DNA of 15,825 nt from a virus (taxonomy: Duplodnaviria; Heunggongvirae; Uroviricota; Caudoviricetes): the IMG/VR virus record IMGVR_UViG_2778261180_000007. One strand, given 5' to 3'. Below the pieces are notes generated by a model that saw nothing but the letters and a program-made list of their open reading frames with translations, was not told the origin of the DNA and did no database searches. A program made the position numbers and the translations under genes. Each line of letters begins with the position of its first letter. Position 1 is the stretch's first letter. This document shows positions 1,245 through 15,825 of the stretch, one piece after another.

Positions 1245-2444
1245 GTGGCAAGAACGACACGCCCCCTGACCAACACAGAAGTTCTGCGCGCTAAAGCGTT
1301 AGAAAAGGATCTAACGTTGCATGATGGCGATGGTCTTTTTCTGCTCGTTAAAACGAACGGTAAGAAGTTATGGCGTTTCCGTTATCAACGTCCAACAACA
1401 AAGCAGCGAACAATGATGGGGCTAGGTGCATTTCCCGCCCTCTCACTTGCTGACGCCCGGCGGTTAAGAGCGGATTACCTTTCCTTGCTAGCCAACGGAA
1501 TTGACCCGCAAATTCAAGCTGAGATTGTAGAGGAACAGCAACAAATTGCACTGGACAGTATTTTTTCAACAGTCGCCGCTAACTGGTTCCAGCTTAAAAG
1601 CAAAAGCGTTACCCCTGATTACGCGAAAGACATTTGGCGTTCACTAGAAAAAGATGTATTCCCTGCCATCGGTGAGATTCCAGTTCAGCAAATCAAAGCC
1701 CGAATGCTTGTTGAAGCCCTAGAGCCAATCAAAGCACGTGGGGCGCTAGAGACGGTACGTCGTCTGGTGCAGCGCATTAATGAGATAATGATTTATGCCG
1801 TAAACACAGGTCTGATTGATGCCAATCCAGCATCAGGTATTGGGATGGCCTTTGAGAAACCTAAAAAGCAAAACATGCTTACTCTCCGGCCAGAAGAATT
1901 ACCGAAGCTGATGCGTTCTTTAATTATGTCTAATCTATCCGTTCCGACACGTTGTCTTATTGAGTGGCAACTACTGACCCTTGTGCGCCCTTCTGAAGCC
2001 TCCGGTACAAGGTGGGCAGAGATCGATCTCGCAGCAAAGGTCTGGACGATTCCACCCGAACGGATGAAGGCCAAGCGTGAGCACATTGTTCCTCTATCTT
2101 CTCAGGCATTAGAAATTCTGGAAGTAATGAAACCAATCAGTGCTCATCGTGAACATGTTTTTCCCAGTAGAAATGACCCGAAACAGTCAATGAATAGCCA
2201 AACTGCTAATGCAGCACTCAAACGCATTGGTTATGGTGGGAAATTAGTTGCTCATGGGTTACGATCCATCGCAAGTACTGCACTCAATGAAGCCGGATTT
2301 AATCCTGATGTAATTGAAGCAGCTCTAGCACATAGTGATAAAAATGAAGTACGAAGAGCTTATAACCGCTCAACGTACCTTAATAAAAGAATAGAACTTA
2401 TGGCATGGTGGGGAAGGTTTGTTTATAAAACAAACCTTTTATAA
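1245..2444 (+). CDS. int: P4-family tyrosine integrase (site-specific recombinase)
   Basis: 399-aa ORF with a GTG start preceded by AAGGA. N-terminal arm-binding-like region (LHDGDGLFLLVKTNGKKLWRFRYQRP) and C-terminal catalytic signature (AHGLRS ... AHSDKNEVRRAYNRSTY) typical of P4-like integrases. Position directly 3' of a tmRNA gene. Confidence 0.9.
   Translation: MARTTRPLTNTEVLRAKALEKDLTLHDGDGLFLLVKTNGKKLWRFRYQRPTTKQRTMMGLGAFPALSLADARRLRADYLSLLANGIDPQIQAEIVEEQQQIALDSIFSTVAANWFQLKSKSVTPDYAKDIWRSLEKDVFPAIGEIPVQQIKARMLVEALEPIKARGALETVRRLVQRINEIMIYAVNTGLIDANPASGIGMAFEKPKKQNMLTLRPEELPKLMRSLIMSNLSVPTRCLIEWQLLTLVRPSEASGTRWAEIDLAAKVWTIPPERMKAKREHIVPLSSQALEILEVMKPISAHREHVFPSRNDPKQSMNSQTANAALKRIGYGGKLVAHGLRSIASTALNEAGFNPDVIEAALAHSDKNEVRRAYNRSTYLNKRIELMAWWGRFVYKTNLL
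2414..2444 (+). terminator. possible terminator hairpin inside the 3' end of int
   Basis: AAGGTTTG (2414-2421) pairs with CAAACCTT (2431-2438) and is followed by TTTTATAA. The int stop (2442-2444) directly abuts the stop of the convergent ATPase gene (2445-2447). Confidence 0.3.
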
Positions 2445-4142
2445 CTATACTTTAAAGAACTTATTTGTCGAAGATAACTCAAGGATCGAGTTACTCATCA
2501 TCATTTTCATGTCCGCATCTTCTGAAAACTTATCACTTAATATTGACACAATATATTGACCATTTATATTATTTGCTTCAAAAAATATATCTCTAATTTG
2601 ATTCACATCGACATCTTCAATGCTATCATGAATAACAAAAGTAGGTCTCTTTAATTTAATCTTATCCACAAACTTAATATAAGCCAAATCAAATGCAGTT
2701 ATTTCACCTTTCTTCTTGCCGCCATTACTGTTTGGTGTAACGCATGATATATCAAAATTACACTTACCTTTATCAACATCAAAGGAAAGATCAAAAATGT
2801 ATCTTTCCCCATATATTTCCTTTGTAAGATCACCAAAAAACTCATTGAAAATCTCGATGTTTTTTTCCAGACCTTGAACTGCTAACTCTATTTCTAAAAG
2901 TAATTTCTCTCGACTATCTTCAAGAGATTTTATAAGGGCATTTGTATCATTAATACGCGAAAGATTAGACTCTATGCTAGCAAGATTTTCACGTAATTCA
3001 GTAAGCTTATTAAATAATTGATTTATAGACTTTAATGTTTCAGGTTCTTTGATTGTTCTAAATAGGGATGATTCTTGTTCATGAAGATCATTGATTTTTT
3101 TATTTACAGTTTCTATTTCTTCTTTTTTCTTTAACAATTCAGATTCTAAAAAACTGATTTTATTCTTAATAATATCATTATGGAACAATACCATTTCTTC
3201 GTAAGTCCTTTTAAGTTCCCCATTAAAATAAATCCCCGCAGAATTATATATTTCCATTAAATCATTTTCTACAAGTTGTGTGATATTATTCTTCAAGGAC
3301 AAGATCGATTCTTCGATATTTCTTACTCGCATATTTAAGGAGGCATAGCTCAAAGAATAATCACTGATATTCTTCTGTATTTCTGAAAGCTTTTTTAAGC
3401 TTTCATCATGACTATCTTTAAAATCGAAGTTCTTAATATTTCTTTCCGCCTCTGCAATTTCTTTCTTCAGAGGCTTAATCATTTTTGCTAAAACAGTCTC
3501 TCTATTTGGATTCCTGTATGCGGCAAGATATGTCTTTTGTTTTTTTATCTCTTTGTTAAAATCACCTTTTTTCTTTATCAGAGGTAACCCATTGAACCCA
3601 AATAAAAACAAGTATAATAGATCATAGACATCAGGAGTCGTATTCCCATGTAAGAAATTAAGCGTTTTCTGCATTTTATCATTCGTGTTTCTAATAAATT
3701 TATGCGAAACATTCCTCAGTGATGGCTTATCTGTAGTTAACCCAAACACTGCTTGAGCTATAAATTCAGAATATTGTTTCTTATCTACTTCAACATCATT
3801 TAAAAAATATTTTGAATTTTTATCATCAATAGATATTATACGTGAAACAACTGCCTTTTTATTTTCTACCGTATTGAAATCCAATGAAAATTTCAAAACA
3901 TTATTATTAATTAACGATACAATTTCAGGTATATCTTTTCCAAACTCTGCATCATGATAAATATCATGACCTGATGACATAAATAAATAATCTAAAACAC
4001 GCGATAATGTGGATTTACCTACACTATTGCCGCTATCTTTGCCTGATGTTCTTTTATTTACAATTAGATTCAGACCGTCTTTAAACGTCACCTCTCTTAC
4101 AAGAGAGTCATTTTTTAAAATAATAAGTTTATTGAGCCTCAT
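2445..4142 (-). CDS. ABC-type (SMC/RecF-like) ATPase with long central coiled-coil; candidate defence-system ATPase
   Basis: 565-aa ORF. N-terminal strand-plus-P-loop layout (LNLIVNKRTSGKDSGNSVGKSTL, Walker A lysine K43). About 300 aa of heptad-like K/E/L/N-rich sequence. C-terminal signature-like SNGGKKKG followed by Walker-B-like TFVIHDSIEDVD. Start overlaps the upstream gene by 14 nt; GGTGGA lies upstream of the ATG. Confidence 0.75.
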   Translation of the reverse strand: MRLNKLIILKNDSLVREVTFKDGLNLIVNKRTSGKDSGNSVGKSTLSRVLDYLFMSSGHDIYHDAEFGKDIPEIVSLINNNVLKFSLDFNTVENKKAVVSRIISIDDKNSKYFLNDVEVDKKQYSEFIAQAVFGLTTDKPSLRNVSHKFIRNTNDKMQKTLNFLHGNTTPDVYDLLYLFLFGFNGLPLIKKKGDFNKEIKKQKTYLAAYRNPNRETVLAKMIKPLKKEIAEAERNIKNFDFKDSHDESLKKLSEIQKNISDYSLSYASLNMRVRNIEESILSLKNNITQLVENDLMEIYNSAGIYFNGELKRTYEEMVLFHNDIIKNKISFLESELLKKKEEIETVNKKINDLHEQESSLFRTIKEPETLKSINQLFNKLTELRENLASIESNLSRINDTNALIKSLEDSREKLLLEIELAVQGLEKNIEIFNEFFGDLTKEIYGERYIFDLSFDVDKGKCNFDISCVTPNSNGGKKKGEITAFDLAYIKFVDKIKLKRPTFVIHDSIEDVDVNQIRDIFFEANNINGQYIVSILSDKFSEDADMKMMMSNSILELSSTNKFFKV

Positions 4143-4362
4143 ATACTATTCCACCATTTCCATCTAACTCAATTGCGCCGATTATGAAAAGCCAATCTAA
4201 TGAGTAAAGAAAAAGATCAAACGATAACTCGAAGATAGAATTTACTAAATCATACAATCGAGATATTTCAATGACCATTGAATCATTACTTTGAAAGATC
4301 CCAAGCACTACACTTCCAATATATACAGGATTTGCTTTTGGATCCGTATCAATTGTAATCAT
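4129..4362 (-). CDS. hypothetical small protein (77 aa) with hydrophobic C-terminal half; operon member
   Basis: ORF preceded by GGAG with 8-nt spacing. Overlaps both neighbours by 14 nt, indicating coupled translation. Hydrophobic segment FDLFLYSLDWLFIIGAIEL. No family recognised. Confidence 0.5.
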   Translation of the reverse strand: MITIDTDPKANPVYIGSVVLGIFQSNDSMVIEISRLYDLVNSIFELSFDLFLYSLDWLFIIGAIELDGNGGIVYEAQ

Positions 4363-4897
4363 TTGGATTCTCCAGCACTATACATTCGATAATAGCATAG
4401 CTAACAATCATACGAATGCCATAATCAATATCTTCCTGTAAAAACTCTGAATCTAAATTAGAACACGAACTAACTGTTTCTTGAGCAGCTCTAATAACAT
4501 CATCTATAATATTATCCGAGTTTTTCCTTATGAGTTCAATGTTAAATGGTTTCTCATAAAGACCATATAATCCCAATGCAGTATTATAATAACCTCTAAA
4601 CTGTCTTTTCAATTTGACACTACCATTTAAAATTATAGCATCAAGTGTTTTTATGGATTCATCAACTAGCAGAGCATCTTCTTTATAAAGTTCAGCTACC
4701 CATCTGTTTCTTTTAAGATCATTGAATTCTATTTTAACATCAATATTTGATGCTATTCTGTTTAAGTTTTGCTCGCTACCAACTGAATTAGAAATAATTT
4801 CAATTAACTTACCAATAACACTGGCTCTTAACATTCTTGGCTGGTTGTTTATATGCACAGGACCAGTATTATTATTGAAATTAACACCAGAACCCAT
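4349..4897 (-). CDS. hypothetical protein (182 aa); operon member
   Basis: ORF preceded by GGGGG. Starts 3 nt after the stop of the upstream small gene. N-terminus carries an NNNTGPVHINN motif that repeats the C-terminus of the upstream protein. No catalytic motif recognised. Confidence 0.65.
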   Translation of the reverse strand: MGSGVNFNNNTGPVHINNQPRMLRASVIGKLIEIISNSVGSEQNLNRIASNIDVKIEFNDLKRNRWVAELYKEDALLVDESIKTLDAIILNGSVKLKRQFRGYYNTALGLYGLYEKPFNIELIRKNSDNIIDDVIRAAQETVSSCSNLDSEFLQEDIDYGIRMIVSYAIIECIVLENPNDYN

Positions 4898-4899
4898 AA

Positions 4900-5172
4900 T
4901 TACCCCCGATTATCAATATTCACAGGACCATTATTATCTTGAAAATATTGAGAACGCGCTCCTTGATTAATGAAGTTTCTATTAGTTGTAATTTTTACAA
5001 TCTGGGAATTAAGATCATTTATTGTAATGTTAAGTTGTTTTATCTCATTATCTTTCTTGGTTACTTGCATAGTCTGATATATTGCTATACATCCAGAGAT
5101 CACCCCAACAATATATCCAAAGGCACTTACATATTCGTTAGCAAGTAGTGATGCAATCATTTGGAGCTCCAT
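4900..5172 (-). CDS. small membrane-anchored protein (90 aa; 86 aa from the alternative ATG at 5160); first gene of the operon
   Basis: Predicted N-terminal transmembrane helix (IASLLANEYVSAFGYIVGVISGCIAIY) followed by a charged helical stretch. The second in-frame ATG at 5160 has a better-placed GGAG. C-terminus NNGPVNIDNRG. Confidence 0.55.
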   Translation of the reverse strand: MELQMIASLLANEYVSAFGYIVGVISGCIAIYQTMQVTKKDNEIKQLNITINDLNSQIVKITTNRNFINQGARSQYFQDNNGPVNIDNRG

Positions 5173-5429
5173 TTCAAGCTGAAAGATTTAAAGTCACAAC
5201 AATCTCATCCTATTAGGGTAGCTAGGATAGCAACTCATGAAGAGTAAATAAATAGGTATTAATCATTATCGTTTACATGATCTAATTCAACATAGATCCA
5301 CTCATGGCCTCTATACTTTCTCATAAACACAGTGTTTAGCTATGTGGGCTTAAGAGGTCTAAATTGATGTACTTACTTTATCAATTGATATAACCCCAAA
5401 TTATAATCGTTTCATATCATTGACGCGCA

Positions 5430-5448
5430 GTGCTTTCCCCGCCTCGCC
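5430..5448 (-). other. cos site: 19-nt cohesive-end sequence GGCGAGGCGGGGAAAGCAC (minus-strand reading)
   Basis: Plus-strand GTGCTTTCCCCGCCTCGCC is the exact reverse complement of the cohesive-end sequence I recall for P2 and P4. It lies between psu and the cargo operon, where cos sits in an integrated P4. Confidence 0.75.
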
Positions 5449-5548
5449 CGCCCGCTTTGCGGGGCGGTTTTAATGCAGTTGCACTGACACGCTCAGACCG
5501 CGCCGGGAATGGCGCGGTCTGCAGAAAATGAGGCAGGGAAACGCATGC

Positions 5549-5582
5549 AAAGCCATGCACCTTATCGATGCATGGCTTTTTT
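5549..5582 (+). terminator. hairpin plus T-tract between cos and the psu 3' end
   Basis: AAAGCCATGCA (5549-5559), loop CCTTATCGA, TGCATGGCTTT (5569-5579), then a T run. May stop read-through into or out of the late operon; orientation of function uncertain. Confidence 0.35.
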
Positions 5583-5612
5583 CAGTAAAAACGGGCGGAT
5601 TTTCGGGGAATT

Positions 5613-6185
5613 TTACACAGACTGACGTGATGCCAGTTGCGCACTTTTACGCGAAAAAATCATGTTCTGCGCAGGGGTGAATTTTTCACGGCTGTCATCC
5701 ACCGAAGCCGCGTCAGGTCTGAATCCAATGGCCGTTAAAATGTCGCTATCCTGTGCGGAATAATTAATTTTTTCACCCTTCGCAAGCCAGGACAGGAGGG
5801 CTTCACGCAGGGCATCTGTGGCACGCTGTATGGCACAGTTTCGGGCAATGGCCGTCAGCTCACTGTAGCCCATCAGCTCCGGTGCCAGTGCCGCCGCCAG
5901 TGCTGTGCCGTGCTGCTGCATAAAATCATTCAGCCGGTCGCGGATGCTGATGTGCTGAACGGCTTCATGCGAACGAATATAACGACCGGCGGCCTGATTC
6001 ACCTGCCATTTTCTGACTTCGATAATATTGCGTAATTCGTCCAGGCGACTGACGTTTCTGCCTTCTCCTGACAGAAGCCGCAGATATTCCTGTTCGGCCG
6101 CAGCCAGCTCATTTTTGCGTTGCAGCCATGCTGCTTTGTTATTCTGACAGGTGTCAAAGGCCTGCTGTAAGGCTGTGCTTTCCAT
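5613..6185 (-). CDS. psu: Psu (polarity suppression / capsid decoration protein), P4-like
   Basis: 190-aa ORF, the size of P4 Psu, last gene of the sid-delta-psu array next to cos. Sequence MESTALQQAFDTCQNN... recognised as Psu-like. Confidence 0.85.
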   Translation of the reverse strand: MESTALQQAFDTCQNNKAAWLQRKNELAAAEQEYLRLLSGEGRNVSRLDELRNIIEVRKWQVNQAAGRYIRSHEAVQHISIRDRLNDFMQQHGTALAAALAPELMGYSELTAIARNCAIQRATDALREALLSWLAKGEKINYSAQDSDILTAIGFRPDAASVDDSREKFTPAQNMIFSRKSAQLASRQSV

Positions 6186-6258
6186 CGTTATCTCTTTCTC
6201 ATCATGCTGAAGAATAAAAATACGGTGTGCGGCGACGGCCGGTGTTAACCGGCAGCCC

Positions 6259-6759
6259 TCATTCCAGACGCAGCGAATATGATTGTGTTTTTAACCGTAC
6301 TGGCGGCAGTTCCTGTTTTTCATGCAGGCTTTCTGCAAGCTCGTCCGGCGTGACCGGGCGGACAATGAAGCGGTTGATGGTCTGAAGCGTTTTAAACACC
6401 AGACCACAGCCCGGATCCGTGCACACATAAAAACGCTCGGTGACTTCCTGAGACAGACGCCGCGATGTTCTTGACAGTGCAAGGCCTTTACATCTCCGAC
6501 AACAATATCCGGTAACAAGCATTCTTTTCGGGCGTTTCATACTGCCGGAGGCTGACGTCAGTGAATCGCGGTATCTCTGTTTGCCTGAAATGTATTCCAT
6601 TCCTGAATCTTTACTGTCAGAGAAAAAGCTTTCACTCGCTTCAAATGTCGCAGAGCAATAAATATTCCGGCACTGTGCAATCATTATCTTGGTGCCATCG
6701 TCCATGAAATGTGCGCGACGGGTGTGAGCAACATGTCCACACGACGGGCAGTAAATCAT
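6259..6759 (-). CDS. delta: Delta, Ogr/Delta-family zinc-finger late-gene activator (tandem Ogr-like repeats)
   Basis: 166-aa ORF with two Ogr-like units, each carrying CPxCGH...C-x-N-x-x-C(S)ATF-type Cys motifs (MIYCPSCGHVAHTRR...QCRNIYCSATF and ...CRRCKG...CTDPGCGLVF). ATGA overlap with the sid stop. Confidence 0.85.
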   Translation of the reverse strand: MIYCPSCGHVAHTRRAHFMDDGTKIMIAQCRNIYCSATFEASESFFSDSKDSGMEYISGKQRYRDSLTSASGSMKRPKRMLVTGYCCRRCKGLALSRTSRRLSQEVTERFYVCTDPGCGLVFKTLQTINRFIVRPVTPDELAESLHEKQELPPVRLKTQSYSLRLE

Positions 6760-7490
6760 GACAGCAGTCCTCTGGCCTTAAGCTCTGCTCCCTGCTGGTC
6801 TATTTTGTCCTGCCACACCTTGCGCTGTGCCGGTGTGCCTGCCACCTCATAATCCATGTGCGGGAGTGTTGCCGCTGACAGTCCGGTCAGCCGGAGAACC
6901 GGCTCACCGGTGAGGCTGATTTGCATCTGTTTTATTTTCTGTTCCAGCGATGATTTCACCTGCTGCATGACAGCCTTTTCCGGTGCGACGTAGCCCTGAT
7001 GGCCGGTGGTGTTGGCGAGCGGATTTTCCTGTACCAGGATGCTCAGATGCATTGCCCGGACAAGCACCTCACAGGTTTCATTCAGGGCGTGTTCCAGCTC
7101 ATGCTCTGCATACAGACTCAGAAGGTGATGATGTGCCTTCCGGTAGGCGGTGGCCGTGCTGTCACACGCCCCTTTCAGGCGTTCACGTTCAAAATTCAGC
7201 ACCACGGCCAGATTGTCATATTCCTGTACCAGCTCCCGGCGTGCCACGCGCTCAATGTGGCGCTGTTTCAGCTCGTCGCTCAGGACACCACCGGCTGCAC
7301 GAAAGGCCGTGCGCCAGTCGTCAGCGTCGTTTCCGTCGGCCTGCGCCAGCGCATTTTTTTCCTGCTCTGCCCGTTCAATGGCCGTGACGGTCTCATCCAT
7401 CAGGCGGGCGTTCTCAAGATGGGCGGCTCTGGCCTTTTCCAGTTGTGCCAGCGCGGGTTGCAGATATTCAGGGATGGTGTTGTCAGACAT
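6756..7490 (-). CDS. sid: Sid (capsid size determination, external scaffold), P4-like
   Basis: 244 aa from the ATG at 7490, which is preceded by AGGAG (MSDNTIPEYLQPALAQ...). The ORF track's earlier ATG at 7556 lacks a Shine-Dalgarno and would overlap the promoter region. Confidence 0.8.
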   Translation of the reverse strand: MSDNTIPEYLQPALAQLEKARAAHLENARLMDETVTAIERAEQEKNALAQADGNDADDWRTAFRAAGGVLSDELKQRHIERVARRELVQEYDNLAVVLNFERERLKGACDSTATAYRKAHHHLLSLYAEHELEHALNETCEVLVRAMHLSILVQENPLANTTGHQGYVAPEKAVMQQVKSSLEQKIKQMQISLTGEPVLRLTGLSAATLPHMDYEVAGTPAQRKVWQDKIDQQGAELKARGLLS

Positions 7491-7562
7491 TTTCCGGCTC
7501 CTCGTCACTTCAGGTTGAGAAAATTGTGACGTACACCGGACAACAACACGACGCATTGCAGA

Positions 7563-7580
7563 TGTGCCAGCCCTGACACA
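7563..7580 (-). promoter_or_regulatory. candidate Delta/Ogr activator site (TGT-N12-ACA) of the sid late promoter
   Basis: TGTGCCAGCCCTGACACA. Its centre is about 82 bp upstream of the sid ATG, compatible with a dyad centred near -55 and a ~27-nt leader. Confidence 0.35.
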
Positions 7581-7659
7581 GGAGACTCATCCTCAGACCG
7601 GCAAGCCAGGAAAAGGTCGCAGGAAAAACCGGCTTACTGTTTGTTTTTTTATATTTTAC

Positions 7660-7763
7660 TGTTCACCTCTGTTCACCATAAGAAAAAAGATAAGTAATAC
7701 AGTAAGTTAAAGGGTGAACAATCGCAGTAATGACTGTTCACCGTCTGTTCACCACTGTTCACC
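7660..7763. repeat. iteron cluster: six copies of the P4 type-I octamer TGTTCACC; candidate alpha-binding origin
   Basis: TGTTCACC at 7660-7667, 7670-7677, 7735-7742, 7746-7753 and 7756-7763; inverted copy GGTGAACA at 7713-7720. Flanked by a T-rich tract (7641-7657). Lies between the divergent sid and vis promoters. Confidence 0.7.
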
Positions 7764-7922
7764 CGTTGATGGGCTTTTTGTGCTGTTTATTACTGTTTGT
7801 TTTTATTAATTCGCCGGGAATGAATAAGAAAAAACGATTTGTATTTCACTATAAAAATTACGAATTGCTTTAAGTGGCTTTAAATGACTTTAAGTGGAGA
7901 TGAACAAAAAACACACAAGCAT

Positions 7923-7940
7923 TGTAAGGCTGCCGGAACA
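7923..7940 (+). promoter_or_regulatory. candidate Delta-dependent late-left promoter activator site (TGT-N12-ACA) upstream of vis
   Basis: TGTAAGGCTGCCGGAACA. Centre is about 111 bp upstream of the vis ATG, and about 395 bp upstream of the putative early promoter. Confidence 0.3.
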
Positions 7941-8042
7941 AATCCCCCCTGTTGCGTCTGCTGAAAATATTCACAAAATAAAACGCTACCCGAAGCCGGA
8001 CGGACTTATCCGGTGCTGTATGGACATTAACGAGGTAGCCCG

Positions 8043-8309
8043 ATGCAAGCTGTTTTTTCTTCCCCGTCTCCTGCCCCTGTGACGCCACTGATGCCGCTGC
8101 CGGACATCACACAGGAGCGTTTTTTACGTCTGCCGGAAGTGATGCACCTGTGCGGCCTGTCACGCTCGACCATCTATGAACTCATCCGTAAGGGGGAATT
8201 TCCGCCGCAGGTGAGTCTTGGCGGTAAAAATGTGGCCTGGCTGCACTCTGAAGTCACCGCATGGATGGCCGGCCGCATTGCCGGACGCAAACGGGGGTAT
8301 GACGCATGA
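8043..8309 (+). CDS. vis: Vis/AlpA-family DNA-binding regulator (excision and late-transcription control)
   Basis: 88-aa ORF, the size of P4 orf88/Vis. AlpA-type helix-turn-helix core [48 protein letters not shown] lies 7 nt upstream of the ATG. Confidence 0.8.
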
Positions 8310-8896
8310 TGATGCCCGCTCTGCAAAAACTCCCTTTTTCTGGCTTGCCTTTTTCCGGCATTTGCGGATATAGTTTTTCCGTTGCCGCAAAATCGGCAGC
8401 CGGGCGTGAGAACCCGTGTAACTCGAAGGCGACATATGACGCGCCATGCGTCTTTTTTTGTGTCGCAATCAACGCCACAGAGCGCCAGATTATGGTGTGG
8501 CGTGTGGTTTGCCGTGCAGGTATGATCCTGTTCGCAATCGCATGTTATGCCACTGAGTCAATGGTAGCTCAGGCGGGGCAGCCTCCGGGCTGGCCGGTAT
8601 TCTTCGAGGCCGGTATTCTCACCCCCGTCTGGGCTATCGCCATCGAGCGTGAGAACTCCGGCGATAGCAGTTATTTGCTACTCGAAGGAGGCTGCCTTAT
8701 GGCTACAACCCTTACCCCCTCACACCCTGAATTTGTCTTTGTGTTTGCGGCTGTCCGTCGCGCAGACCGTCATCCCCGTATCTGTATGCTTCGCACCGTC
8801 GCCGGTGATGAACGCAGTGCCCGCCGTTCCCTTGTCCGTGACTATGTGCTCTCCCTTGCTGCCCGTCTGCCGGTGGTGGAGGTGTCCCGTGCGTAA
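8306..8896 (+). CDS. eta: eta-like long ORF (194-196 aa, three consecutive ATGs) enclosing kil and spanning the immunity region
   Basis: Open frame from an ATGATGATG start that overlaps the vis stop (ATGA). Matches my recollection of P4 eta: about 197 codons, three candidate start codons, kil nested in the same frame at the 3' end. Coding status itself is uncertain. Confidence 0.4.
8345..8374 (+). promoter_or_regulatory. candidate early promoter (PLE-like)
   Basis: TTGCCT (8345-8350), 18-bp spacer, TATAGT (8369-8374); alternative -10 GATATA with 16-bp spacer. Lies just upstream of seqA. Confidence 0.3.
8406..8687 (+). promoter_or_regulatory. P4-type RNA immunity region: seqA (8406-8428), seqB within a candidate CI RNA (8602-8622), seqC (8649-8687)
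   Basis: seqA GTGAGAA...CTCGAAG and seqC GTGAGAA...CTCGAAG are each complementary to seqB CTTCGAG...TTCTCAC (reverse complement GTGAGAAtaccggcCTCGAAG). seqC runs into the GGAGG Shine-Dalgarno of kil. Confidence 0.45.
8699..8896 (+). CDS. kil: Kil-like small protein (65 aa)
   Basis: ATG at 8699 preceded by GGAGG that overlaps seqC. 65 codons, the size I recall for P4 Kil. Shares frame and stop with eta. Confidence 0.5.
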
Positions 8897-9176
8897 TAAA
8901 AAAGCCCCTCAGACCGTCTCAGCACGTCATGACGCCCGTGAACACCTCAGCATTGAGGCTTACCATAAGCTCAACCGCGCCAGCGCCGTATCCCAGTTTG
9001 TTGGGGGTGATTTGATTCACCGTGAACTCTCCGGCCTGCATCAGCTCTACATTCCGCATATTTTCAGCTACCTGAATGAAGATATTGATTTTGTGCTGAA
9101 TGAGCTGAAAGCCAAAGGCCTGTGCCGCGATTTTCTCGCCCAGCAGAAAGACCGGGGAGACAGGACGCATGTTTGA
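8889..9176 (+). CDS. Eps-like protein (95 aa), candidate helper-derepression factor
   Basis: GTG start at 8889 preceded by GGAGG and overlapping the kil stop. Stop overlaps the start of the orf151-like gene. Assignment is by position and size relative to P4 epsilon. The ORF track's longer form (from 8649) lies in the immunity region. Confidence 0.5.
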
Positions 9177-9624
9177 TTTTCCCCAGCCCGGTGAGATTTA
9201 CCGTTCTGCCGGTTTTCCCGATGTGGCCGTAGTCGGCATTCTGGAAGACGGTATTCCGTGGGAAATGCCGTACCGCTGCCCGGACATTGTCTGGAACCCG
9301 TACCGCCGTAAATTCAGTATTCTTGTGCGTATCCTCGCCGACGGGCGCACCACAGACATCCCGCTGGGGCGTTTTCTGCGGGAATTTACCTGTGACCGTC
9401 CTGACCTGTTTAAACGCAGCCCCGTAAACCGGCATGCGGTACTGAAAGAAATGGCCGGAGACCCGGAATTACAGAAATGGCGGGAGAAATATCTGGATAT
9501 TTACCCGCAGGAGCCTGTTCCGGTCAGCCGGGCGGCACCGGTGGCGCGGGAATGGCGGGAAATTCCCCGCACGGAGCCTGACCCGGAAATCACCCCGGAT
9601 AACAGTTACCGCAATTATCTGTAA
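9169..9624 (+). CDS. P4 orf151-like hypothetical protein (151 aa)
   Basis: Size and position (between eps and alpha) match P4 orf151. Start overlaps the upstream stop. Confidence 0.7.
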   Translation: MFDFPQPGEIYRSAGFPDVAVVGILEDGIPWEMPYRCPDIVWNPYRRKFSILVRILADGRTTDIPLGRFLREFTCDRPDLFKRSPVNRHAVLKEMAGDPELQKWREKYLDIYPQEPVPVSRAAPVAREWREIPRTEPDPEITPDNSYRNYL

Positions 9625-9759
9625 TTAAAAAACGACACCCGAAAAATTAAATGTGCGTATTCGCGCAGGGATACGCACGTCTTCAGGAGACGCAGATATG
9701 CCTTATCAGTTAATGCAACCGGCACGGAATGCAGTCATCTGTCACAGGGAGGAAAGCAA

Positions 9760-10080
9760 ATGAAAACACCCTTACCGCCCGTCTTACGCGCTGCCCTTTA
9801 CCGTCGCGCTGTCGCCTGTGCCTGGCTGACCGTGTGCGAACGTCAGCACCGCTACCCGCATCTCACCCTTGAGTCACTGGAGGCGGCCATCGCCGCTGAG
9901 CTGGAAGGCTTTTATCTGCGCCAGCACGGTGAGGAAAAAGGGCGTCAGATAGCCTGTGCCCTGCTGGAAGATTTAATGGAATCCGGCCCCCTGAAGGCCG
10001 CGCCGTCGCTGTCCTTTCTCGGGCTGGTTGTGATGGATGAACTCTGTGCCCGTCACATAAAAGCGCCGGTACTGCACTGA
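9760..10080 (+). CDS. P4 orf106-like hypothetical protein (106 aa)
   Basis: GGGAGG lies 7 nt upstream of the ATG. Sits directly upstream of alpha. A 21-codon upstream ORF overlaps its start. Confidence 0.65.
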
Positions 10081-10094
10081 AGGAGAACAACACC

Positions 10095-12428
10095 ATGAAA
10101 ATGAACGTAACCGCCACCGTCAGCCATGCACTCGGCCACTGGCCGCGTATTCTCCCGGCGCTGGGGATTCAGGTGCTGAAAAACCGTCATCAGCCCTGTC
10201 CGGTCTGTGGCGGGAGTGACCGCTTCCGTTTTGATGACAGGGAGGGGCGCGGCACCTGGTACTGCAATCAGTGTGGTGCCGGTGACGGCCTGAAACTGGT
10301 TGAAAAGGTGTTTGGTGTTTCCCCGTCCGACGCGGCCGCAAAGGTGGCTGCCGTGACCGGCAGCCTGCCCCCGGCTGACCCGGCAGTGACGGCCGCCGCC
10401 GGTGCTGAAACAGACGCTGCCCGGAAGAACGCCGCCGCACTGGCACAAACCCTGATGGCAAAAACCCGTCCCGGAACCGGTAACGCCTACCTGACCCGCA
10501 AGGGCTTTCCCGGCCGGGAATGCCGGATGCTGACCGGCACACACAGAGCCGGTGGCGTGAGCTGGCGCGCCGGTGACCTTGTGGTGCCACTGTATGACGA
10601 CAGCGGCGAACTGGTTAACCTTCAGTTAATCAGTGCTGACGGCCGTAAGCGCACCCTGAAAGGCGGACAGGTCAGGGGCACCTGTCACATCCTTGAAGGA
10701 CAGAATCAGGCCGGAAAACGTCTGTGGATAGCGGAGGGATACGCGACCGCACTTACCGTGCATCACCTGACCGGTGAAACGGTGATGGTGGCGCTTTCTT
10801 CCGTGAATCTCCTTTCTCTGGCCAGCCTTGCCCGGCAGAAGCATCCGGCCTGTCAGATTGTCCTTGCTGCTGACCGTGACCTCAGCGGTGACGGCCAGAA
10901 AAAAGCCGCCGCAGCCGCAGATGCGTGTGAAGGTGTTGTTGCCCTGCCGCCGGTCTTCGGTGACTGGAATGATGCCTTCACGCAGTACGGCGGGGAAGCC
11001 ACCCGTAAGGCCATTTATGATGCCATCCGGCCACCGGCTGAAAGCCCGTTCGACACCATGAGCGAAGCGGAGTTTTCCGCCATGAGTACCAGCGAAAAGG
11101 CCATGCGTATCTATGAGCATTACGGCGAGGCGCTCGCGGTTGATGCCAACGGCCAGCTTCTGTCCCGTTATGAAAATGGTGTCTGGAAGGTGCTGCCACC
11201 ACAGGACTTTGCCCGGGATGTGGCCGGGCTGTTTCAGCGGCTGCGCGCGCCGTTCTCCTCCGGGAAGGTGGCCTCCGTGGTGGACACCCTGAAGCTGATT
11301 ATTCCGCAGCAGGAAGCCCCCTCCCGCCGCCTGATTGGCTTTCGTAACGGCGTGCTCGACACGCAGAACGGCACGTTCCACCCGCACAGTCCGTCACACT
11401 GGATGCGCACCCTGTGCGATGTGGATTTCACCCCACCGGTGGAAGGGGAAACGCTGGAAACCCACGCCCCCGCGTTCTGGCGCTGGCTTGACCGTGCCGC
11501 CGGTGGCCGTGCGGAAAAACGCGACGTGATTCTGGCCGCACTGTTTATGGTGCTGGCAAACCGCTATGACTGGCAGCTCTTTCTGGAGGTGACCGGTCCC
11601 GGCGGAAGCGGCAAAAGTATCATGGCCGAAATAGCCACCCTGCTGGCCGGGGAGGATAACGCCACGTCGGCCACCATTGAGACGCTGGAATCCCCGCGTG
11701 AACGTGCCGCGTTAACTGGCTTCTCACTGATACGCCTGCCGGACCAGGAAAAATGGAGCGGCGACGGAGCCGGACTCAAGGCCATCACCGGCGGCGATGC
11801 AGTGTCCGTTGACCCGAAATACCGGGATGCGTACTCCACGCACATCCCGGCGGTGATTCTGGCCGTGAACAATAACCCGATGCGCTTCACCGACCGCAGC
11901 GGCGGCGTGTCACGCCGGCGGGTGATTATTCACTTCCCGGAACAGATAGCCCCGCAGGAGCGCGACCCGCAACTTAAGGACAAAATCACCCGCGAGCTGG
12001 CGGTCATCGTGCGTCACCTGATGCAGAAGTTCAGCGACCCGATGCTCGCCCGGTCACTGCTTCAGTCCCAGCAGAACTCAGACGAGGCACTGAACATCAA
12101 ACGGGATGCCGACCCGACGTTTGATTTTATCGGCTATCTGGAAACCCTGCCGCAGACCAGCGGCATGTATATGGGGAACGCCAGTATCATCCCGCGTAAC
12201 TACCGTAAATACCTCTATCACGCCTATCTGGCCTACATGGAGGCAAACGGCTACCGGAATGTACTCAGTCTGAAAATGTTCGGGCTGGGGCTGCCGGTGA
12301 TGCTGAAGGAATACGGGCTGAATTACGAGAAGCGCCATACCAAACAGGGGATACAGACCAACCTGACGCTGAAAGAGGAAAGCTACGGCGACTGGCTGCC
12401 AAAATGTGACGACCCTGCAACAACCTGA
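10095..12428 (+). CDS. alpha: Alpha: P4-type primase-helicase replication protein
   Basis: 777 aa, the size of P4 alpha. AGGAG Shine-Dalgarno. N-terminal zinc motif CPVCGGSDRFRFDD...CNQCG. Toprim-like EGYATAL and AADRD. Helicase Walker A VTGPGGSGKS. Iteron arrays lie on both sides. Confidence 0.9.
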   Translation: MKMNVTATVSHALGHWPRILPALGIQVLKNRHQPCPVCGGSDRFRFDDREGRGTWYCNQCGAGDGLKLVEKVFGVSPSDAAAKVAAVTGSLPPADPAVTAAAGAETDAARKNAAALAQTLMAKTRPGTGNAYLTRKGFPGRECRMLTGTHRAGGVSWRAGDLVVPLYDDSGELVNLQLISADGRKRTLKGGQVRGTCHILEGQNQAGKRLWIAEGYATALTVHHLTGETVMVALSSVNLLSLASLARQKHPACQIVLAADRDLSGDGQKKAAAAADACEGVVALPPVFGDWNDAFTQYGGEATRKAIYDAIRPPAESPFDTMSEAEFSAMSTSEKAMRIYEHYGEALAVDANGQLLSRYENGVWKVLPPQDFARDVAGLFQRLRAPFSSGKVASVVDTLKLIIPQQEAPSRRLIGFRNGVLDTQNGTFHPHSPSHWMRTLCDVDFTPPVEGETLETHAPAFWRWLDRAAGGRAEKRDVILAALFMVLANRYDWQLFLEVTGPGGSGKSIMAEIATLLAGEDNATSATIETLESPRERAALTGFSLIRLPDQEKWSGDGAGLKAITGGDAVSVDPKYRDAYSTHIPAVILAVNNNPMRFTDRSGGVSRRRVIIHFPEQIAPQERDPQLKDKITRELAVIVRHLMQKFSDPMLARSLLQSQQNSDEALNIKRDADPTFDFIGYLETLPQTSGMYMGNASIIPRNYRKYLYHAYLAYMEANGYRNVLSLKMFGLGLPVMLKEYGLNYEKRHTKQGIQTNLTLKEESYGDWLPKCDDPATT

Positions 12429-12440
12429 CCCTCATGACTC

Positions 12441-12800
12441 ATCTGACCGGCATCTGCCGGTCTTTTTTCATCCCTGAATCCCCCGAAGGTGAACAATCCA
12501 CTGTTCACCCTTCACCGTATATTCACCCGTTATCACACTGAAATTAAAAGAGAAAAATGAAAGGTGAACAGTGTGAACAATCAAATCAAAAAAAACTTTT
12601 TTCTCCCTGTGTGATTTCAGTACGGGGGATTAATCACCGGTATGAGTCACACCGGCAGAATGCCGGAGGTGAAGAATCGAATGTTCACCCTTCACCCATT
12701 ATTCACCACCTATCAAACTGAAATAAAAGGAGAAAAAAGAAAGATGAACAGTGTGAACAGTTCTTCCGAAAAAAAATTTTTTTCCTGTACGATATAGCAT
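12441..12800. repeat. two tandem ~180-bp imperfect direct repeats with TGTTCACC/GGTGAACA iterons and A8/T6-7 tracts; cis-replication-region-like
   Basis: Unit 1: GGTGAACA 12488-12495, TGTTCACC 12502-12509, degenerate copies 12510-12528, GGTGAACA 12563-12570, GTGAACA 12573-12579, A8cT6 12588-12602. Unit 2 repeats this 180 bp later (TGTTCACC 12682-12689, A8T7 12769-12783). Each unit begins with a CCGGCA...TGCCGG hairpin. Confidence 0.65.
12445..12468 (+). terminator. intrinsic terminator of the alpha (left) operon
   Basis: GACCGGCA, loop TC, TGCCGGTC, then TTTTTT, 17 nt after the alpha stop. Confidence 0.55.
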
Positions 12801-13458: not shown

Positions 13459-15825
13459 TCAGCGGTGAACCCCCGTTAACGATGCATACGGCGTCAGGTT
13501 CCAGTTACCATCGGTAAATCGCATCCCGGTTTCAATGTGACCGCCCAGCCCGTTGCTGCGATAACTGCCGTTGGCGGCTCCACCGCTGCCAACCGTGGAG
13601 TCGCGAGCTTCGGTACCTGCTAATACCAATAAATTACCGCCATTTTCCAGCAACATATTGGTCGCTAAATTGCCGGAAATGGAAAAAGTGCCGTACTGGT
13701 GAGTACCGCTGATTTCAATACCGTTAGCCGTGCTCGTCTGGAGAGCGGCACCGCTGTTCTGGACGATATCTGTCGCTTTGCCATTATCGTTAACTGTCAG
13801 CGTACCGCCTTCATTGATCTTTGTTTTTATTGCCTCTCCGTTAGCTGAAACTGTTTGTATTCCGCCGTCGTTAATCGTTGTCTCATTCGCCACCCCCTCG
13901 ACGATTTGTTCGCCGCCGGTGAGCGTCGTGCCTGTCGCAGTGGCTTTTGTTTTGACGATCTCCCGTCCGCCCGTATTGACCTGTGTTTTGTCAGAAGAGG
14001 TGTCTGACTCCATGGTTAACACGCCGCCATTTGCCAGCAGGATATTGTTCGCCGCACCCTGCTCGATGCTGAACGCGACGCCATCCGCGCGTGTTCCTGT
14101 GACCCGCGTCGCCCTGGTGGTTGCAACCAAAGCGTCCTGGCTACTCTGCTGTATCCCCGTTGCGCTGCCTTTCTCCCGCACATCGAGTGTGCCGCCGTCA
14201 TTAAGCACCGAGTTTTCAGCCAGACCGCCCTCATTAACTACCTGTGAACACCCATTAATAATGGAACCTTCCGCTGTCCCGTTTGCCATAATTTGTTGTA
14301 GGCCAGAGACGATATCGGTATTGATTGCCTTACCATAATTCTGAACGGTTTGCGTGCCACCATTGATGTGTGTTTTCTCTGTTGACCCACCATCAACAAT
14401 TTGTTCACCACTTTCGATATTTGCCTCAGTGGCTAATCCATATACCGTTTGCTTGCCACCTTTGATATTTGCTTTATCAGAAGTGGCACTGGCATATATT
14501 GTTTGGGTGCCAGCACTATTGAGTACAGTGCCAACATCTTTTCCATAAACATCCATTTTGCCGTTGGCATTAATAATCGTATCAACTGCCCGGGAACCAG
14601 TGACGACTGTTAATGAGCCAGCGTTTTCCAGCACTACATTTTTAGCTTCTGAATTCCTGATGTAGAAAGCATCACCATAACTGTTGGTTCCTTCGATAAG
14701 GGTTCCGGAAGTTGTGGAAGCAATTAATGCGCCGCCGGATTGTTGCTCAACATGCTTAGCCTCACCACCGTCCTGAACCTCCAGAACGCCACCATTATTA
14801 AGTCTGGTGGTATCTGTTTTAGCCTCCTTCTGGGCAATCAGCTTACCGCCAGCATCAACGGTAGTATTTTTCGCCGAGGTTTTAGCCACTACCGTCAGTT
14901 CGCCGGTATTTTCCAGCACAACATAATTAGCCTCCCCTCCGGTAATAGTGAAGTGAGAGAGCTTGTTGTATCCTTCAATATCAGTCCCTGCGCCCGTGTT
15001 GGCAACTAAAGCACTGCCCGTCTCCTGGTTAACCCCATGTGCAATACCACCGGTATAGACAATCAGCGAGCCTCCGGCGCTAATATTGCTGCCAGTTGCC
15101 GTACCATCTTTCTCAACAACCTGCCGGCTCCCGGAGGATATAATTGTCGTGTCAGCTTTCCCGCCGCTCTTGATATTTTGCGTTCCGCCGTTGATATTGG
15201 TACCCGTGGCAATACCATGATTATTAATATTCTGTGTACCACCATTGATTATGGTATTGGTCGCGTTTCCGGTAACATCCATTACCCCGCCGTTATCTAT
15301 TCGGGTCGCATCAGCTTTAGCATTCGTTAAAACTGACATTGTTCCTTTATCTTTAATAATCGTCTTGTTTGCCGAACCATATGCGTTTATGTCTAAATGA
15401 CCACCGTTTTCCAGCAACACATTGTCTGCCACGTGATTGTGGATGGAGAATGCACCTTCACTATTCGTACCGCTCACCGTCGTACCGTTAGTGTTTGTTT
15501 TTAAAATTGCACCATCGTGCTGGGTAACATTTGTTGCCGTACCACCACTAACATCAAGCACGCCACCGGAATAAACTTCAATAACATCCGAGGAGCTGGT
15601 GTAATCAACAATTTGCGTACCACCAGAATAGATCTGAGTATTTTTTGCCGTTGACTTATTATTCAGAGACTGAGTTCCACCTTCAATCGTCGTGTCCAGC
15701 GCATGGCTTTCATATACTCTTTGCTCACCGCCATTTTTAATGGTGGTTGTTCCTACTGTGCTCTGTTCAACAGTAACCGGCTCATTTAAACCGTCTGGTC
15801 TGTTTCCTCCGGCTCTACAAAAATA
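13459..15825 (-). CDS. AIDA-I/Ag43-type autotransporter adhesin, passenger region (5'-partial; continues beyond the window end)
   Basis: Reading frame is open from the window edge (15825) down to the stop at 13459-13461. Dozens of G/T/N-rich ~19-aa beta-helix repeats (e.g. INGGTQNI, TIINGGTQ, VLENAGSLTVV). The ORF track's GTG at 15561 is not the true start. Confidence 0.8.
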   Translation of the reverse strand, partial: YFCRAGGNRPDGLNEPVTVEQSTVGTTTIKNGGEQRVYESHALDTTIEGGTQSLNNKSTAKNTQIYSGGTQIVDYTSSSDVIEVYSGGVLDVSGGTATNVTQHDGAILKTNTNGTTVSGTNSEGAFSIHNHVADNVLLENGGHLDINAYGSANKTIIKDKGTMSVLTNAKADATRIDNGGVMDVTGNATNTIINGGTQNINNHGIATGTNINGGTQNIKSGGKADTTIISSGSRQVVEKDGTATGSNISAGGSLIVYTGGIAHGVNQETGSALVANTGAGTDIEGYNKLSHFTITGGEANYVVLENTGELTVVAKTSAKNTTVDAGGKLIAQKEAKTDTTRLNNGGVLEVQDGGEAKHVEQQSGGALIASTTSGTLIEGTNSYGDAFYIRNSEAKNVVLENAGSLTVVTGSRAVDTIINANGKMDVYGKDVGTVLNSAGTQTIYASATSDKANIKGGKQTVYGLATEANIESGEQIVDGGSTEKTHINGGTQTVQNYGKAINTDIVSGLQQIMANGTAEGSIINGCSQVVNEGGLAENSVLNDGGTLDVREKGSATGIQQSSQDALVATTRATRVTGTRADGVAFSIEQGAANNILLANGGVLTMESDTSSDKTQVNTGGREIVKTKATATGTTLTGGEQIVEGVANETTINDGGIQTVSANGEAIKTKINEGGTLTVNDNGKATDIVQNSGAALQTSTANGIEISGTHQYGTFSISGNLATNMLLENGGNLLVLAGTEARDSTVGSGGAANGSYRSNGLGGHIETGMRFTDGNWNLTPYASLTGVHR

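What the first reader, a model, noticed from the sequence alone, without database searches (positions are those of the whole stretch)
7525..7940. Divergent late promoters with TGT-N12-ACA activator dyads flanking the iteron cluster
TGT-N12-ACA, the dyad type recognised by Ogr/Delta activators, occurs at 7563-7580 (spacing fits the sid promoter) and at 7923-7940 (spacing fits a late-left promoter about 395 bp upstream of the putative early promoter, as described for P4 PLL versus PLE). A third dyad at 7525-7542 is too close to the sid ATG to serve as the -55 site.
Basis: partly seen in the sequence, partly recalled or inferred. Interest (0 to 1): 0.4.

Follow-up and report, generated by a model that had tools for sequence, protein, structure and literature searches.

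The report
Known P4 satellite late promoters
The three TGT-N12-ACA dyads are real, but they are the already-described helper-activated late promoters (Psid and PLL) of satellite phage P4, here in a near-identical P4-like prophage of a type found in about a fifth of complete E. coli genomes, so the finding is correct but ordinary.

Summary
The window is a P4-like satellite prophage inserted at ssrA, and bases 5449-12782 are 97.7% identical to phage P4.

- **Psid dyads:** both are base-for-base identical to P4.
- **PLL dyad:** it differs from P4 only inside its 12-bp spacer.
- **What lies between them:** the "iteron cluster" is the annotated P4 replication origin, and the 10-bp repeats next to PLL match P2 cox-boxes.

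The motif alone is weak evidence (6 specified bases; 3 in the intergenic region against 0.26 expected). Comparison is decisive. In 164 related loci the sid-distal dyad keeps perfect arms at a fixed distance from the sid ATG, through 18 different spacer versions.

The "third" dyad is not an orphan. It is centred near -17.5 and overlaps the Psid -10 hexamer. That matches, from my memory of the literature, the second Delta-binding site reported for P4 Psid. It is a perfect dyad only in the P4 clade.

Transcription starts were inferred, not measured. Verdict: interpretation supported, already known, low interest.

The parts
7563..7580 (.). Psid activator dyad (site I), TGT-N12-ACA, centre 81.5 nt upstream of the sid ATG and about -55.5 from the predicted start
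   Evidence: One search gives the coordinates. It is identical to P4. Its arms are perfect, at a fixed position, in all 70 unique sid-upstream segments (164 loci) despite 18 different 18-mers.
7525..7542 (.). Psid proximal dyad (site II), centre about -17.5, overlapping the -10 hexamer
   Evidence: One search gives the coordinates. It is identical to P4. It is a perfect dyad only in the P4 clade; 13 other versions read TGT-N12-AGA at the same register. Delta binding here is recalled from the literature, not tested.
7523..7528 (-). Psid -10-like hexamer CACAAT (CAGAAT in other clades). The predicted start is the A at 7516, giving a 26-nt leader to the sid ATG.
   Evidence: Read from the sequence. 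The position is conserved without gaps across clades. No sigma-70 consensus promoter is detected here. The start site is inferred.
5613..7490 (-). Late operon sid (6756-7490), delta (6259-6759) and psu (5613-6185), driven by Psid
   Evidence: P4 annotation transferred from X51522. Pfam finds Psu and Ogr_Delta x2. Delta is 98% identical to P4 Delta.
7660..7763 (.). P4 ori: six type 1 iterons TGTTCACC (alpha-protein binding repeats)
   Evidence: 11 matches in the window against 0.43 expected: six here and four in the crr at 12488-12689. They are annotated as 'ori type 1 repeat' in X51522.
7865..7897 (-). Three tandem 10-bp 'ori type 2 repeats' (CTTTAAGTGG / CTTTAAATGA), which on the minus strand read as P2 cox-boxes (TTAAAGCCA, TTAAAGTCA, plus one imperfect box)
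   Evidence: Exact cox-box matches lie at 7875-7883 and 7885-7893. The consensus TTAAA(G/C)NC(A/C), and a Cox site upstream of P4 PLL, are described in PMC3936717. X51522 annotates the type 2 repeats.
7923..7940 (.). PLL activator dyad TGT-N12-ACA, centre 111.5 nt upstream of the vis ATG and about -54.5 from the predicted start
   Evidence: One search gives the coordinates. The arms are identical to P4, with three substitutions confined to the spacer. A perfect dyad occupies the same register in 11 distinct versions belonging to three unrelated sequence types.
7974..7979 (+). PLL -10-like hexamer CAAAAT inside the block AAAATATTCACAAAATA, which is conserved in nearly all loci. The predicted start is about 7985-7988.
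   Evidence: The block is conserved in nearly all of the 161 loci. No sigma-70 consensus is detected. The start site is inferred.
8043..8309 (+). vis / ORF88 (AlpA-family HTH), first gene of the PLL transcript
   Evidence: Pfam Phage_AlpA, E = 7e-21. It corresponds to ORF88 of X51522.
8345..8458 (+). Early promoter PLE (TTGCCT-18-TATAGT, 8345-8374) and its leader RNA (isrK-type, 8381-8458)
   Evidence: The promoter scan finds this as the only hit in 7400-8500. Rfam isrK at 8381-8458 scores 67 bits and c4-a1b1 lies at 8368-8420.

Best explanation
The interval is the divergent late-promoter and origin region of a P4-type satellite prophage.

**Psid (leftward).** The dyad at 7563-7580 is the activator site of Psid, which drives sid-delta-psu.

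**PLL (rightward).** The dyad at 7923-7940 is the activator site of PLL. It drives vis and reads through the early operon from about 395 bp upstream of PLE.

**How activation works.** Both promoters have a weak xAxAAT -10 element and no usable -35. They should therefore be silent until a small zinc-finger activator binds the dyad. That activator is Ogr from an infecting or induced P2-type helper, or the satellite's own Delta. From about -55 it recruits RNA polymerase. In the established P2 model this happens through the alpha subunit C-terminal domain; this step is taken from the literature and not tested here.

**The third dyad.** The dyad at 7525-7542 overlaps the Psid -10 element at about -18. 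It is the second, P4-specific Delta site, and most likely modulates Psid once Delta accumulates.

**Between the promoters.** The P4 origin iterons lie between the two promoters. Next to PLL are cox-boxes, through which helper Cox can also switch PLL on.

**Shown here:** presence and coordinates of the dyads, orthology to P4, conservation of the arms, and an intact delta gene.

**Inferred:** the transcription start sites, activator binding, and the regulatory sign of site II.
For: - **Orthology:** the region is 97.7% identical to P4 with identical gene order. Both Psid dyads are identical to P4, and the PLL dyad differs only in its spacer.
- **Selection on Psid site I:** in 164 loci (70 unique sequences) from E. 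coli genomes and viral contigs, the arms TGT/ACA are invariant and sit 81-84 nt from the sid ATG. The spacer shows 18 versions.
- **PLL:** a perfect dyad sits at one fixed register in 53 of 108 unique sequences, including three unrelated spacer and flank types.
- **Activator-dependent architecture:** no sigma-70 consensus is found at either promoter, whereas PLE is detected.
- **Reference geometry:** the P2 RefSeq record annotates activator sites whose centres lie 55-58 nt from the mapped late starts.
- **Consensus attribution:** TGT-N12-ACA is attributed to Ogr-dependent late promoters in PMC3931495.
- **Activator present:** delta is intact with two Ogr_Delta fingers and is 98% identical to P4 Delta.
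- **Neighbouring elements:** cox-boxes lie upstream of PLL as described in PMC3936717, and the ori iterons are as annotated.
Against: - No transcription start, footprint or expression data exist for this window. The -55 and -18 positions depend on starts inferred from -10-like hexamers.
- The motif is short, and five other copies in the window are probably chance.
- None of the four P2 late promoters carries a perfect TGT-N12-ACA at its annotated activator site. The strict pattern is therefore neither necessary nor, alone, diagnostic.
- The PLL dyad is degenerate or absent in many non-P4 clades.
- One P4-clade locus (L036) has TAT in place of TGT.
- The primary papers on Delta footprints (Julien & Calendar 1995; Reiter et al. 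1998) could not be read. The identification of site II rests on memory plus sequence identity to P4.
Confidence: 0.9

Rival explanations
1. Only the two -55 dyads are functional. The proximal dyad 7525-7542 is a by-product: a conserved TGTTGTTGT block lies 12 bp from a -10 hexamer that happens to read CACAAT, with no regulatory role of its own.
For: - Its left arm is part of a block conserved in all clades, and its right arm is part of the -10 hexamer.
- All other clades have TGT-N12-AGA, so a single base makes the dyad perfect.
- Two loci with a short, single-finger Delta still carry the perfect site.
Against: - From memory, Delta footprints a second site near -18 on P4 Psid, and this sequence is identical to P4.
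- The perfect version is fixed throughout the P4 clade: 14 unique segments and 76 loci.
- It co-occurs with the two-finger Delta in 74 of 76 loci, although that association is phylogenetically confounded.
Confidence: 0.2
2. The dyads are chance matches to a low-information pattern in an AT/GC-mixed intergenic region. The promoters, if any, are controlled by other elements.
For: - The pattern has six specified bases, and the window has five other matches without context.
- Three matches within 416 bp arise in 2% of window shuffles.
Against: - The arms of site I are invariant at a fixed register across 18 spacer versions and several clades.
- The PLL dyad recurs at the same register in unrelated sequence contexts.
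- The sequences are identical or near-identical to the experimentally studied P4 promoters.
Confidence: 0.02
3. The dyads are operators for a satellite-encoded regulator other than Delta/Ogr. Candidates are the AlpA-family Vis protein, which from memory regulates PLL and Psid, or the alpha replication protein acting at the adjacent origin.
For: - vis is the first gene downstream of PLL.
- The origin iterons lie between the two promoters.
- From memory, Vis represses PLL and stimulates Psid.
Against: - The alpha-binding iteron is TGTTCACC, a different motif that is clearly separate.
- The dyad type matches the consensus attributed to Ogr-dependent promoters.
- Its distance from the predicted starts matches the annotated P2 activator sites.
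- Vis could well bind nearby, for example at the conserved palindrome at 7993-8015, without using the dyads.
Confidence: 0.04

Closest known systems
Bacteriophage P4 Psid (sid/late promoter), X51522 about 9557-9640
   Same: Both dyads, the spacer between them, the -10-like hexamer and the leader are identical. The one exception in the 130 nt upstream of the sid ATG is a polymorphism at 7517, and both variants are common. The operon sid-delta-psu is the same.
   Different: Nothing of substance differs. The host context differs: this prophage sits at ssrA with a non-P4 integrase and a different cargo.
Bacteriophage P4 PLL (late leftward promoter upstream of vis/ORF88 and PLE)
   Same: The register is the same, 111.5 nt from the vis ATG. 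The TGT/ACA arms are identical, as is the -10 block apart from one substitution just downstream of it. The cox-box / type 2 repeats upstream are the same, and PLL lies about 395 bp from PLE.
   Different: There are three substitutions in the dyad spacer (TGTAAGGCTGCCGGAACA against P4 TGTAAGACAGCCTGAACA), two just upstream and one near the predicted start. The window's spacer version is the commonest in the population, found in 28 of 108 unique sequences.
Bacteriophage P2 late promoters PP, PO, PV and PF (Ogr-dependent)
   Same: The activator site is centred 55-58 nt from the mapped start. There is no good -35. A TGT half-site sits near -64, and the activator family is the same.
   Different: The P2 sites are imperfect: none is a perfect TGT-N12-ACA. 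PP and PO share one site bidirectionally, while the P4-type region uses two separate sites about 360 bp apart with an origin between them.
Short-Delta P4-like satellites of Enterobacterales (phiR73-type organisation)
   Same: The sid-upstream architecture is the same, with perfect site I at the same register, a conserved inter-site block and the conserved PLL core.
   Different: Site II reads TGT-N12-AGA and the -10 is CAGAAT. Delta is 72-81 aa with one zinc finger. The PLL dyad is often degenerate or spaced N13.

Membership tests
Ogr/Delta-dependent late promoters of P2/P4-type elements | Element of dyad symmetry TGT-N12-ACA upstream of the promoter | tested here: met
   Perfect matches lie at 7563-7580 and 7923-7940. 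The consensus is as cited in PMC3931495.
Ogr/Delta-dependent late promoters of P2/P4-type elements | Dyad centred about 55 nt upstream of the transcription start | tested here: inconclusive
   The starts are not measured. With starts inferred from the -10-like hexamers, the centres fall at -55.5 (Psid) and about -54.5 (PLL). Annotated P2 sites lie 55-58 nt from mapped starts. Gapless conservation of the dyad-to-ATG distance supports rigid geometry.
Ogr/Delta-dependent late promoters of P2/P4-type elements | Weak core promoter lacking a sigma-70 -35 consensus (activator-dependent) | tested here: met
   The consensus scan of 7400-8500 finds only PLE and nothing at Psid or PLL. The -10 elements are CACAAT and CAAAAT.
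Ogr/Delta-dependent late promoters of P2/P4-type elements | Transcription requires Ogr/Delta (and the RNA polymerase alpha subunit contact) | not testable with these tools
   This needs expression or footprint experiments. The cognate gene is present and intact.
Orthologs of P4 Psid and PLL | Collinear sequence identity with the P4 promoters between sid and vis | tested here: met
   The region is 97.7% identical over 1101 bp. The gapless alignment shows the Psid dyads identical and the PLL arms identical.
P4 Psid second Delta site (site II, about -18) | Second TGT-N12-ACA overlapping the -10 region, 38 bp promoter-proximal to site I | tested here: met
   The site at 7525-7542 has its centre 38 bp from the centre of site I and is identical to P4. 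That P4 Delta footprints this site is recalled from Julien & Calendar 1995 and Reiter et al. 1998, which are not readable here.
P4 replication origin (ori) | Cluster of type 1 iterons TGTTCACC, with a second cluster (crr) about 4.5-5 kb away downstream of alpha | tested here: met
   Six copies lie at 7660-7763 and four at 12488-12689, against 0.43 expected for the whole window. X51522 and X05623 carry the annotation.
P2 Cox-responsive region of P4 PLL | Several cox-boxes TTAAA(G/C)NC(A/C) at 10-11 bp spacing upstream of PLL | tested here: inconclusive
   There are two exact boxes and one imperfect box at 10-bp spacing in 7865-7893 on the minus strand. The paper describes at least six boxes per site, and the remainder were not identified here.

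The most novel reading that the evidence does not exclude
The proximal Psid dyad (site II, 7525-7542) is a clade-specific innovation. It was created by a single base change in the -10 hexamer (CAGAAT to CACAAT; plus-strand position 7526). It may have co-evolved with the tandem duplication that produced the two-finger 166-aa Delta. If so, P4-proper satellites have a Delta-specific feedback input on their own late operon that single-finger-Delta satellites lack. In the loci examined, the perfect site occurs with long Delta in 74 loci and the AGA form with short Delta in 77. Two loci have the perfect site with short Delta, and none has the AGA form with long Delta.
Probability: 0.3. Interest if true: 0.3.

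Novelty: already known. Interest (0 to 1): 0.08.

Why it matters
It matters little as a discovery. Psid and PLL, their activator dyads, the origin between them and the Cox-responsive region were all characterised in P4 between the 1980s and 1998, and this window is a 97.7% identical relative.

The practical value is for annotation. The region marks an apparently intact, helper-inducible P4-type satellite, with intact delta, sid, psu, vis, ori and alpha, in the host genome. The same module occurs in 1069 of 5426 complete E. coli genomes.

The comparative by-products are small additions rather than new biology. They are the invariant site I arms across clades, site II confined to the P4 clade, and the alternative cassettes upstream of PLL.

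Tried and rejected
- **Literature:** I tried to read the primary papers: Julien & Calendar 1995 (PMID 7601839 / PMC177091), Reiter et al. 1998 (PMC107552), and the reviews PMC3518693 and PMC4836473. None is held. Text searches for Psid, PLL and Delta returned only indirect mentions. The mapped start sites and the site II footprint are therefore cited from memory.
- **First viral-contig scan:** it returned mostly near-identical P4 Sid loci. Re-ordering the alignment with a divergent Sid first gave the diversity needed.
- **P2 test set:** I expected the P2 late promoters to contain perfect TGT-N12-ACA dyads and serve as a positive control. They do not, so only the annotated site-to-start distances were used.
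- **Other promoters from these dyads:** I looked by eye for oppositely oriented promoters served by the same dyads, on the model of P2 PP/PO. I saw no plausible -10 element at the right distance. This was an inspection of the sequence, not a test.
- **Other dyads:** I rejected the five other TGT-N12-ACA matches in the window (1526, 4602, 8417, 9620, 12405) as late-promoter candidates. Four lie inside genes or inside the isrK-type RNA, and the fifth (9620-9637) straddles the end of orf151. None has a conserved promoter context.

Full report
**Context**

The window carries smpB (1-483) and the tmRNA gene (698-1060). These are followed by a tyrosine integrase (1245-2444) and about 3 kb of cargo. 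From 5449 to 12782 there is a block 97.7% identical to the complete genome of satellite phage P4 (X51522).

Transferring the P4 annotation, with Pfam support, gives:

| Feature | Coordinates | Strand | Note |
|---|---|---|---|
| psu | 5613-6185 | - | |
| delta | 6259-6759 | - | 166 aa, two Ogr_Delta zinc fingers, 163/166 identical to P4 Delta |
| sid | 6756-7490 | - | |
| vis / ORF88 | 8043-8309 | + | AlpA family |
| alpha (primase-helicase) | 10095-12428 | + | |

The finding therefore lies in the sid-vis intergenic region of a P4-type prophage. The same 661-bp region is present in 1069 of 5426 complete E. coli genomes.

**The observation**

The three TGT-N12-ACA dyads are at exactly the stated coordinates.

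The motif is weak, with six specified bases. The window holds 8 copies against 3.9 expected. A cluster of three within 416 bp arises in 2% of shuffled windows. Three in the 552-bp intergenic region, against 0.26 expected, arise in 0.2% of shuffles. On statistics alone this is only suggestive.

**Orthology**

A gapless alignment of 7440-8400 with P4 shows the following.
- Both sid-side dyads, the 20 bp between them and the leader are identical to P4, apart from one polymorphic base at 7517.
- The vis-side dyad keeps TGT and ACA but has three substitutions, all in the spacer: TGTAAGGCTGCCGGAACA against P4 TGTAAGACAGCCTGAACA.
- The "iteron cluster" is six copies of TGTTCACC at 7660-7763. X51522 annotates these as ori type 1 repeats.
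- The second cluster, at 12488-12689, corresponds to the crr annotated downstream of alpha in X05623.
- The three 10-bp "type 2" repeats at 7865-7897 read on the minus strand as P2 cox-boxes (TTAAAGCCA, TTAAAGTCA). This fits the published statement that P2 Cox binds upstream of P4 PLL at boxes TTAAA(G/C)NC(A/C) (PMC3936717).

**Geometry**

*Psid (minus strand).* On the sid strand the sequence reads: site I TGTGTCAGGGCTGGCACA, then 20 nt, then site II TGTCCGGTGTACGTCACA, then ATTTTCTCA.
- The hexamer CACAAT (7528 down to 7523) is the only -10-like element.
- It places the start at the A at 7516, 26 nt before the sid ATG.
- Site I is then centred at -55.5 and site II at -17.5.

*PLL (plus strand).* CAAAAT (7974-7979) places the start near 7986. 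The dyad is then centred near -54.5.

*PLE.* A consensus scan finds no sigma-70-type promoter at either place. It does find PLE (TTGCCT-18-TATAGT, 8345-8374). The Rfam isrK model begins at 8381, which fixes the PLE start independently. PLL therefore lies about 395 bp upstream of PLE.

*Reference.* In the P2 RefSeq record, the annotated activator sites have centres 55-58 nt from the mapped late starts.

The starts in this window are inferred, not measured.

**Comparative test**

I collected 12 E. coli loci spanning 66-99% identity and 160 viral-contig loci found with Sid alignments.

*Site I.* It is perfect in all 70 unique sid-upstream sequences (164 loci) at a fixed register, 81-84 nt from the ATG. 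There are 18 different 18-mers. TGTG-CA and CACA are invariant, while the central bases turn over freely. Three very distant loci (L173-L175) lack a perfect N12 dyad there. This is the signature of a protein-binding dyad under selection.

*Site II.* It is perfect only in the P4 clade. The 13 other versions read TGT-N12-AGA at the same register, because their -10 hexamer is CAGAAT rather than CACAAT.

*PLL dyad.* It is perfect at one register in 53 of 108 unique sequences. These include three unrelated sequence types (TGTAAG...GAACA, TGTCCCGTGCTTTGTACA, TGTGCCATGCCTCATACA). In many short-Delta clades only the left half (TGTGTGG) persists, or the spacing is N13. The core block AAAATATTCACAAAATA is conserved in nearly all loci.

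**Interpretation**

These are the two divergent, activator-dependent late promoters of a P4-type satellite, flanking its origin.

The one correction concerns the third dyad. It is indeed not a -55 site, but it is not an orphan either. It overlaps the -10 element at about -18 and is identical to P4. From memory, Delta was reported to bind a second site there (Julien & Calendar 1995; Reiter et al. 1998, cited in PMC13586616). I could not read those papers. That identification therefore rests on sequence identity plus recollection.

The mechanism of activation is established knowledge for this family and was not tested here. In that model, a zinc-finger activator bound at -55 contacts the RNA polymerase alpha C-terminal domain.

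**Small additions**

- Perfect site II co-occurs with the duplicated, two-finger 166-aa Delta:

| Site II form | Delta | Loci |
|---|---|---|
| perfect | long (166 aa) | 74 |
| TGT-N12-AGA | short (72-81 aa) | 77 |
| perfect | short | 2 |
| TGT-N12-AGA | long | 0 |

  The association is phylogenetically confounded and may reflect a single event.
- Within the P4 clade, the roughly 45 bp just upstream of the PLL dyad occurs as three alternative cassettes. Only the one present here and in P4 contains cox-boxes.

**Verdict**

The feature is already known (P4 Psid, PLL and ori), and interest is low.

Noticed in passing
window 7858-7905; loci L009, L010, L017, L019 and others at the equivalent position: In P4-clade elements, the roughly 45 bp immediately upstream of the PLL dyad comes in three alternative cassettes, while the dyad and origin on either side stay conserved. 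Type A (window, P4; 33 loci) carries the CTTTAAGTGG repeats, which are P2 cox-boxes. Types B (23 loci) and C (26 loci) have unrelated repeat-like sequences with essentially no cox-boxes. These may be helper-specific derepression modules.
   Followed up: partly
window 7525-7542 and 6259-6759; 153 related loci: The perfect proximal Psid dyad co-occurs with the 166-aa two-finger Delta (74 loci). TGT-N12-AGA co-occurs with the 72-81-aa single-finger Delta (77 loci). Two apparent recombinants (L014, L077) have the perfect site with short Delta, and none shows the reverse combination. The association is confounded by phylogeny.
   Followed up: partly
window 7988-8015: A GC-rich palindrome (CCGGACGGACTTATCCGG) lies directly after the predicted PLL start, inside the block GCTACCCGAAGCCGGAC. 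That block is conserved across nearly all clades, with arm changes that keep the palindrome. It could be a leader RNA hairpin or an operator, for example for Vis.
   Followed up: no
window 8368-8458 and 8557-8644: Rfam matches to isrK (8381-8458), c4-a1b1 (8368-8420) and C4 antisense RNA (8557-8644) cover the P4 immunity RNA system downstream of PLE. The terminator-like hairpin at 8438-8452 ends the isrK-type RNA.
   Followed up: no
window 9620-9637: Another perfect TGT-N12-ACA (TGTAATTAAAAAACGACA) straddles the end of orf151 and the AT-rich gap before orf106 and alpha. No promoter context was checked, and it is probably chance.
   Followed up: no
window 1245-5448: The satellite is integrated next to ssrA (tmRNA 698-1060). 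It has an integrase and cargo not found in P4, including a 565-aa protein with DUF2326 and a weak AAA_21 (AbiEii-like) match at 2445-4142 on the minus strand. This is the int-psu hotspot, where P4-like elements carry defence systems (PMC13586616).
   Followed up: no
L015 (phage P2) 3057-3087, 10239-10266, 17555-17583: None of the annotated activator-binding sites of the four P2 late promoters is a perfect TGT-N12-ACA. They read TGT-N12-CCA or TGT-N12-CAA. A strict pattern search would therefore miss the type promoters of the family.
   Followed up: yes
window 13459-15561: A 700-aa AIDA-type autotransporter adhesin ORF on the minus strand lies just beyond the P4-homologous block. It may be host DNA or further cargo.
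   Followed up: no
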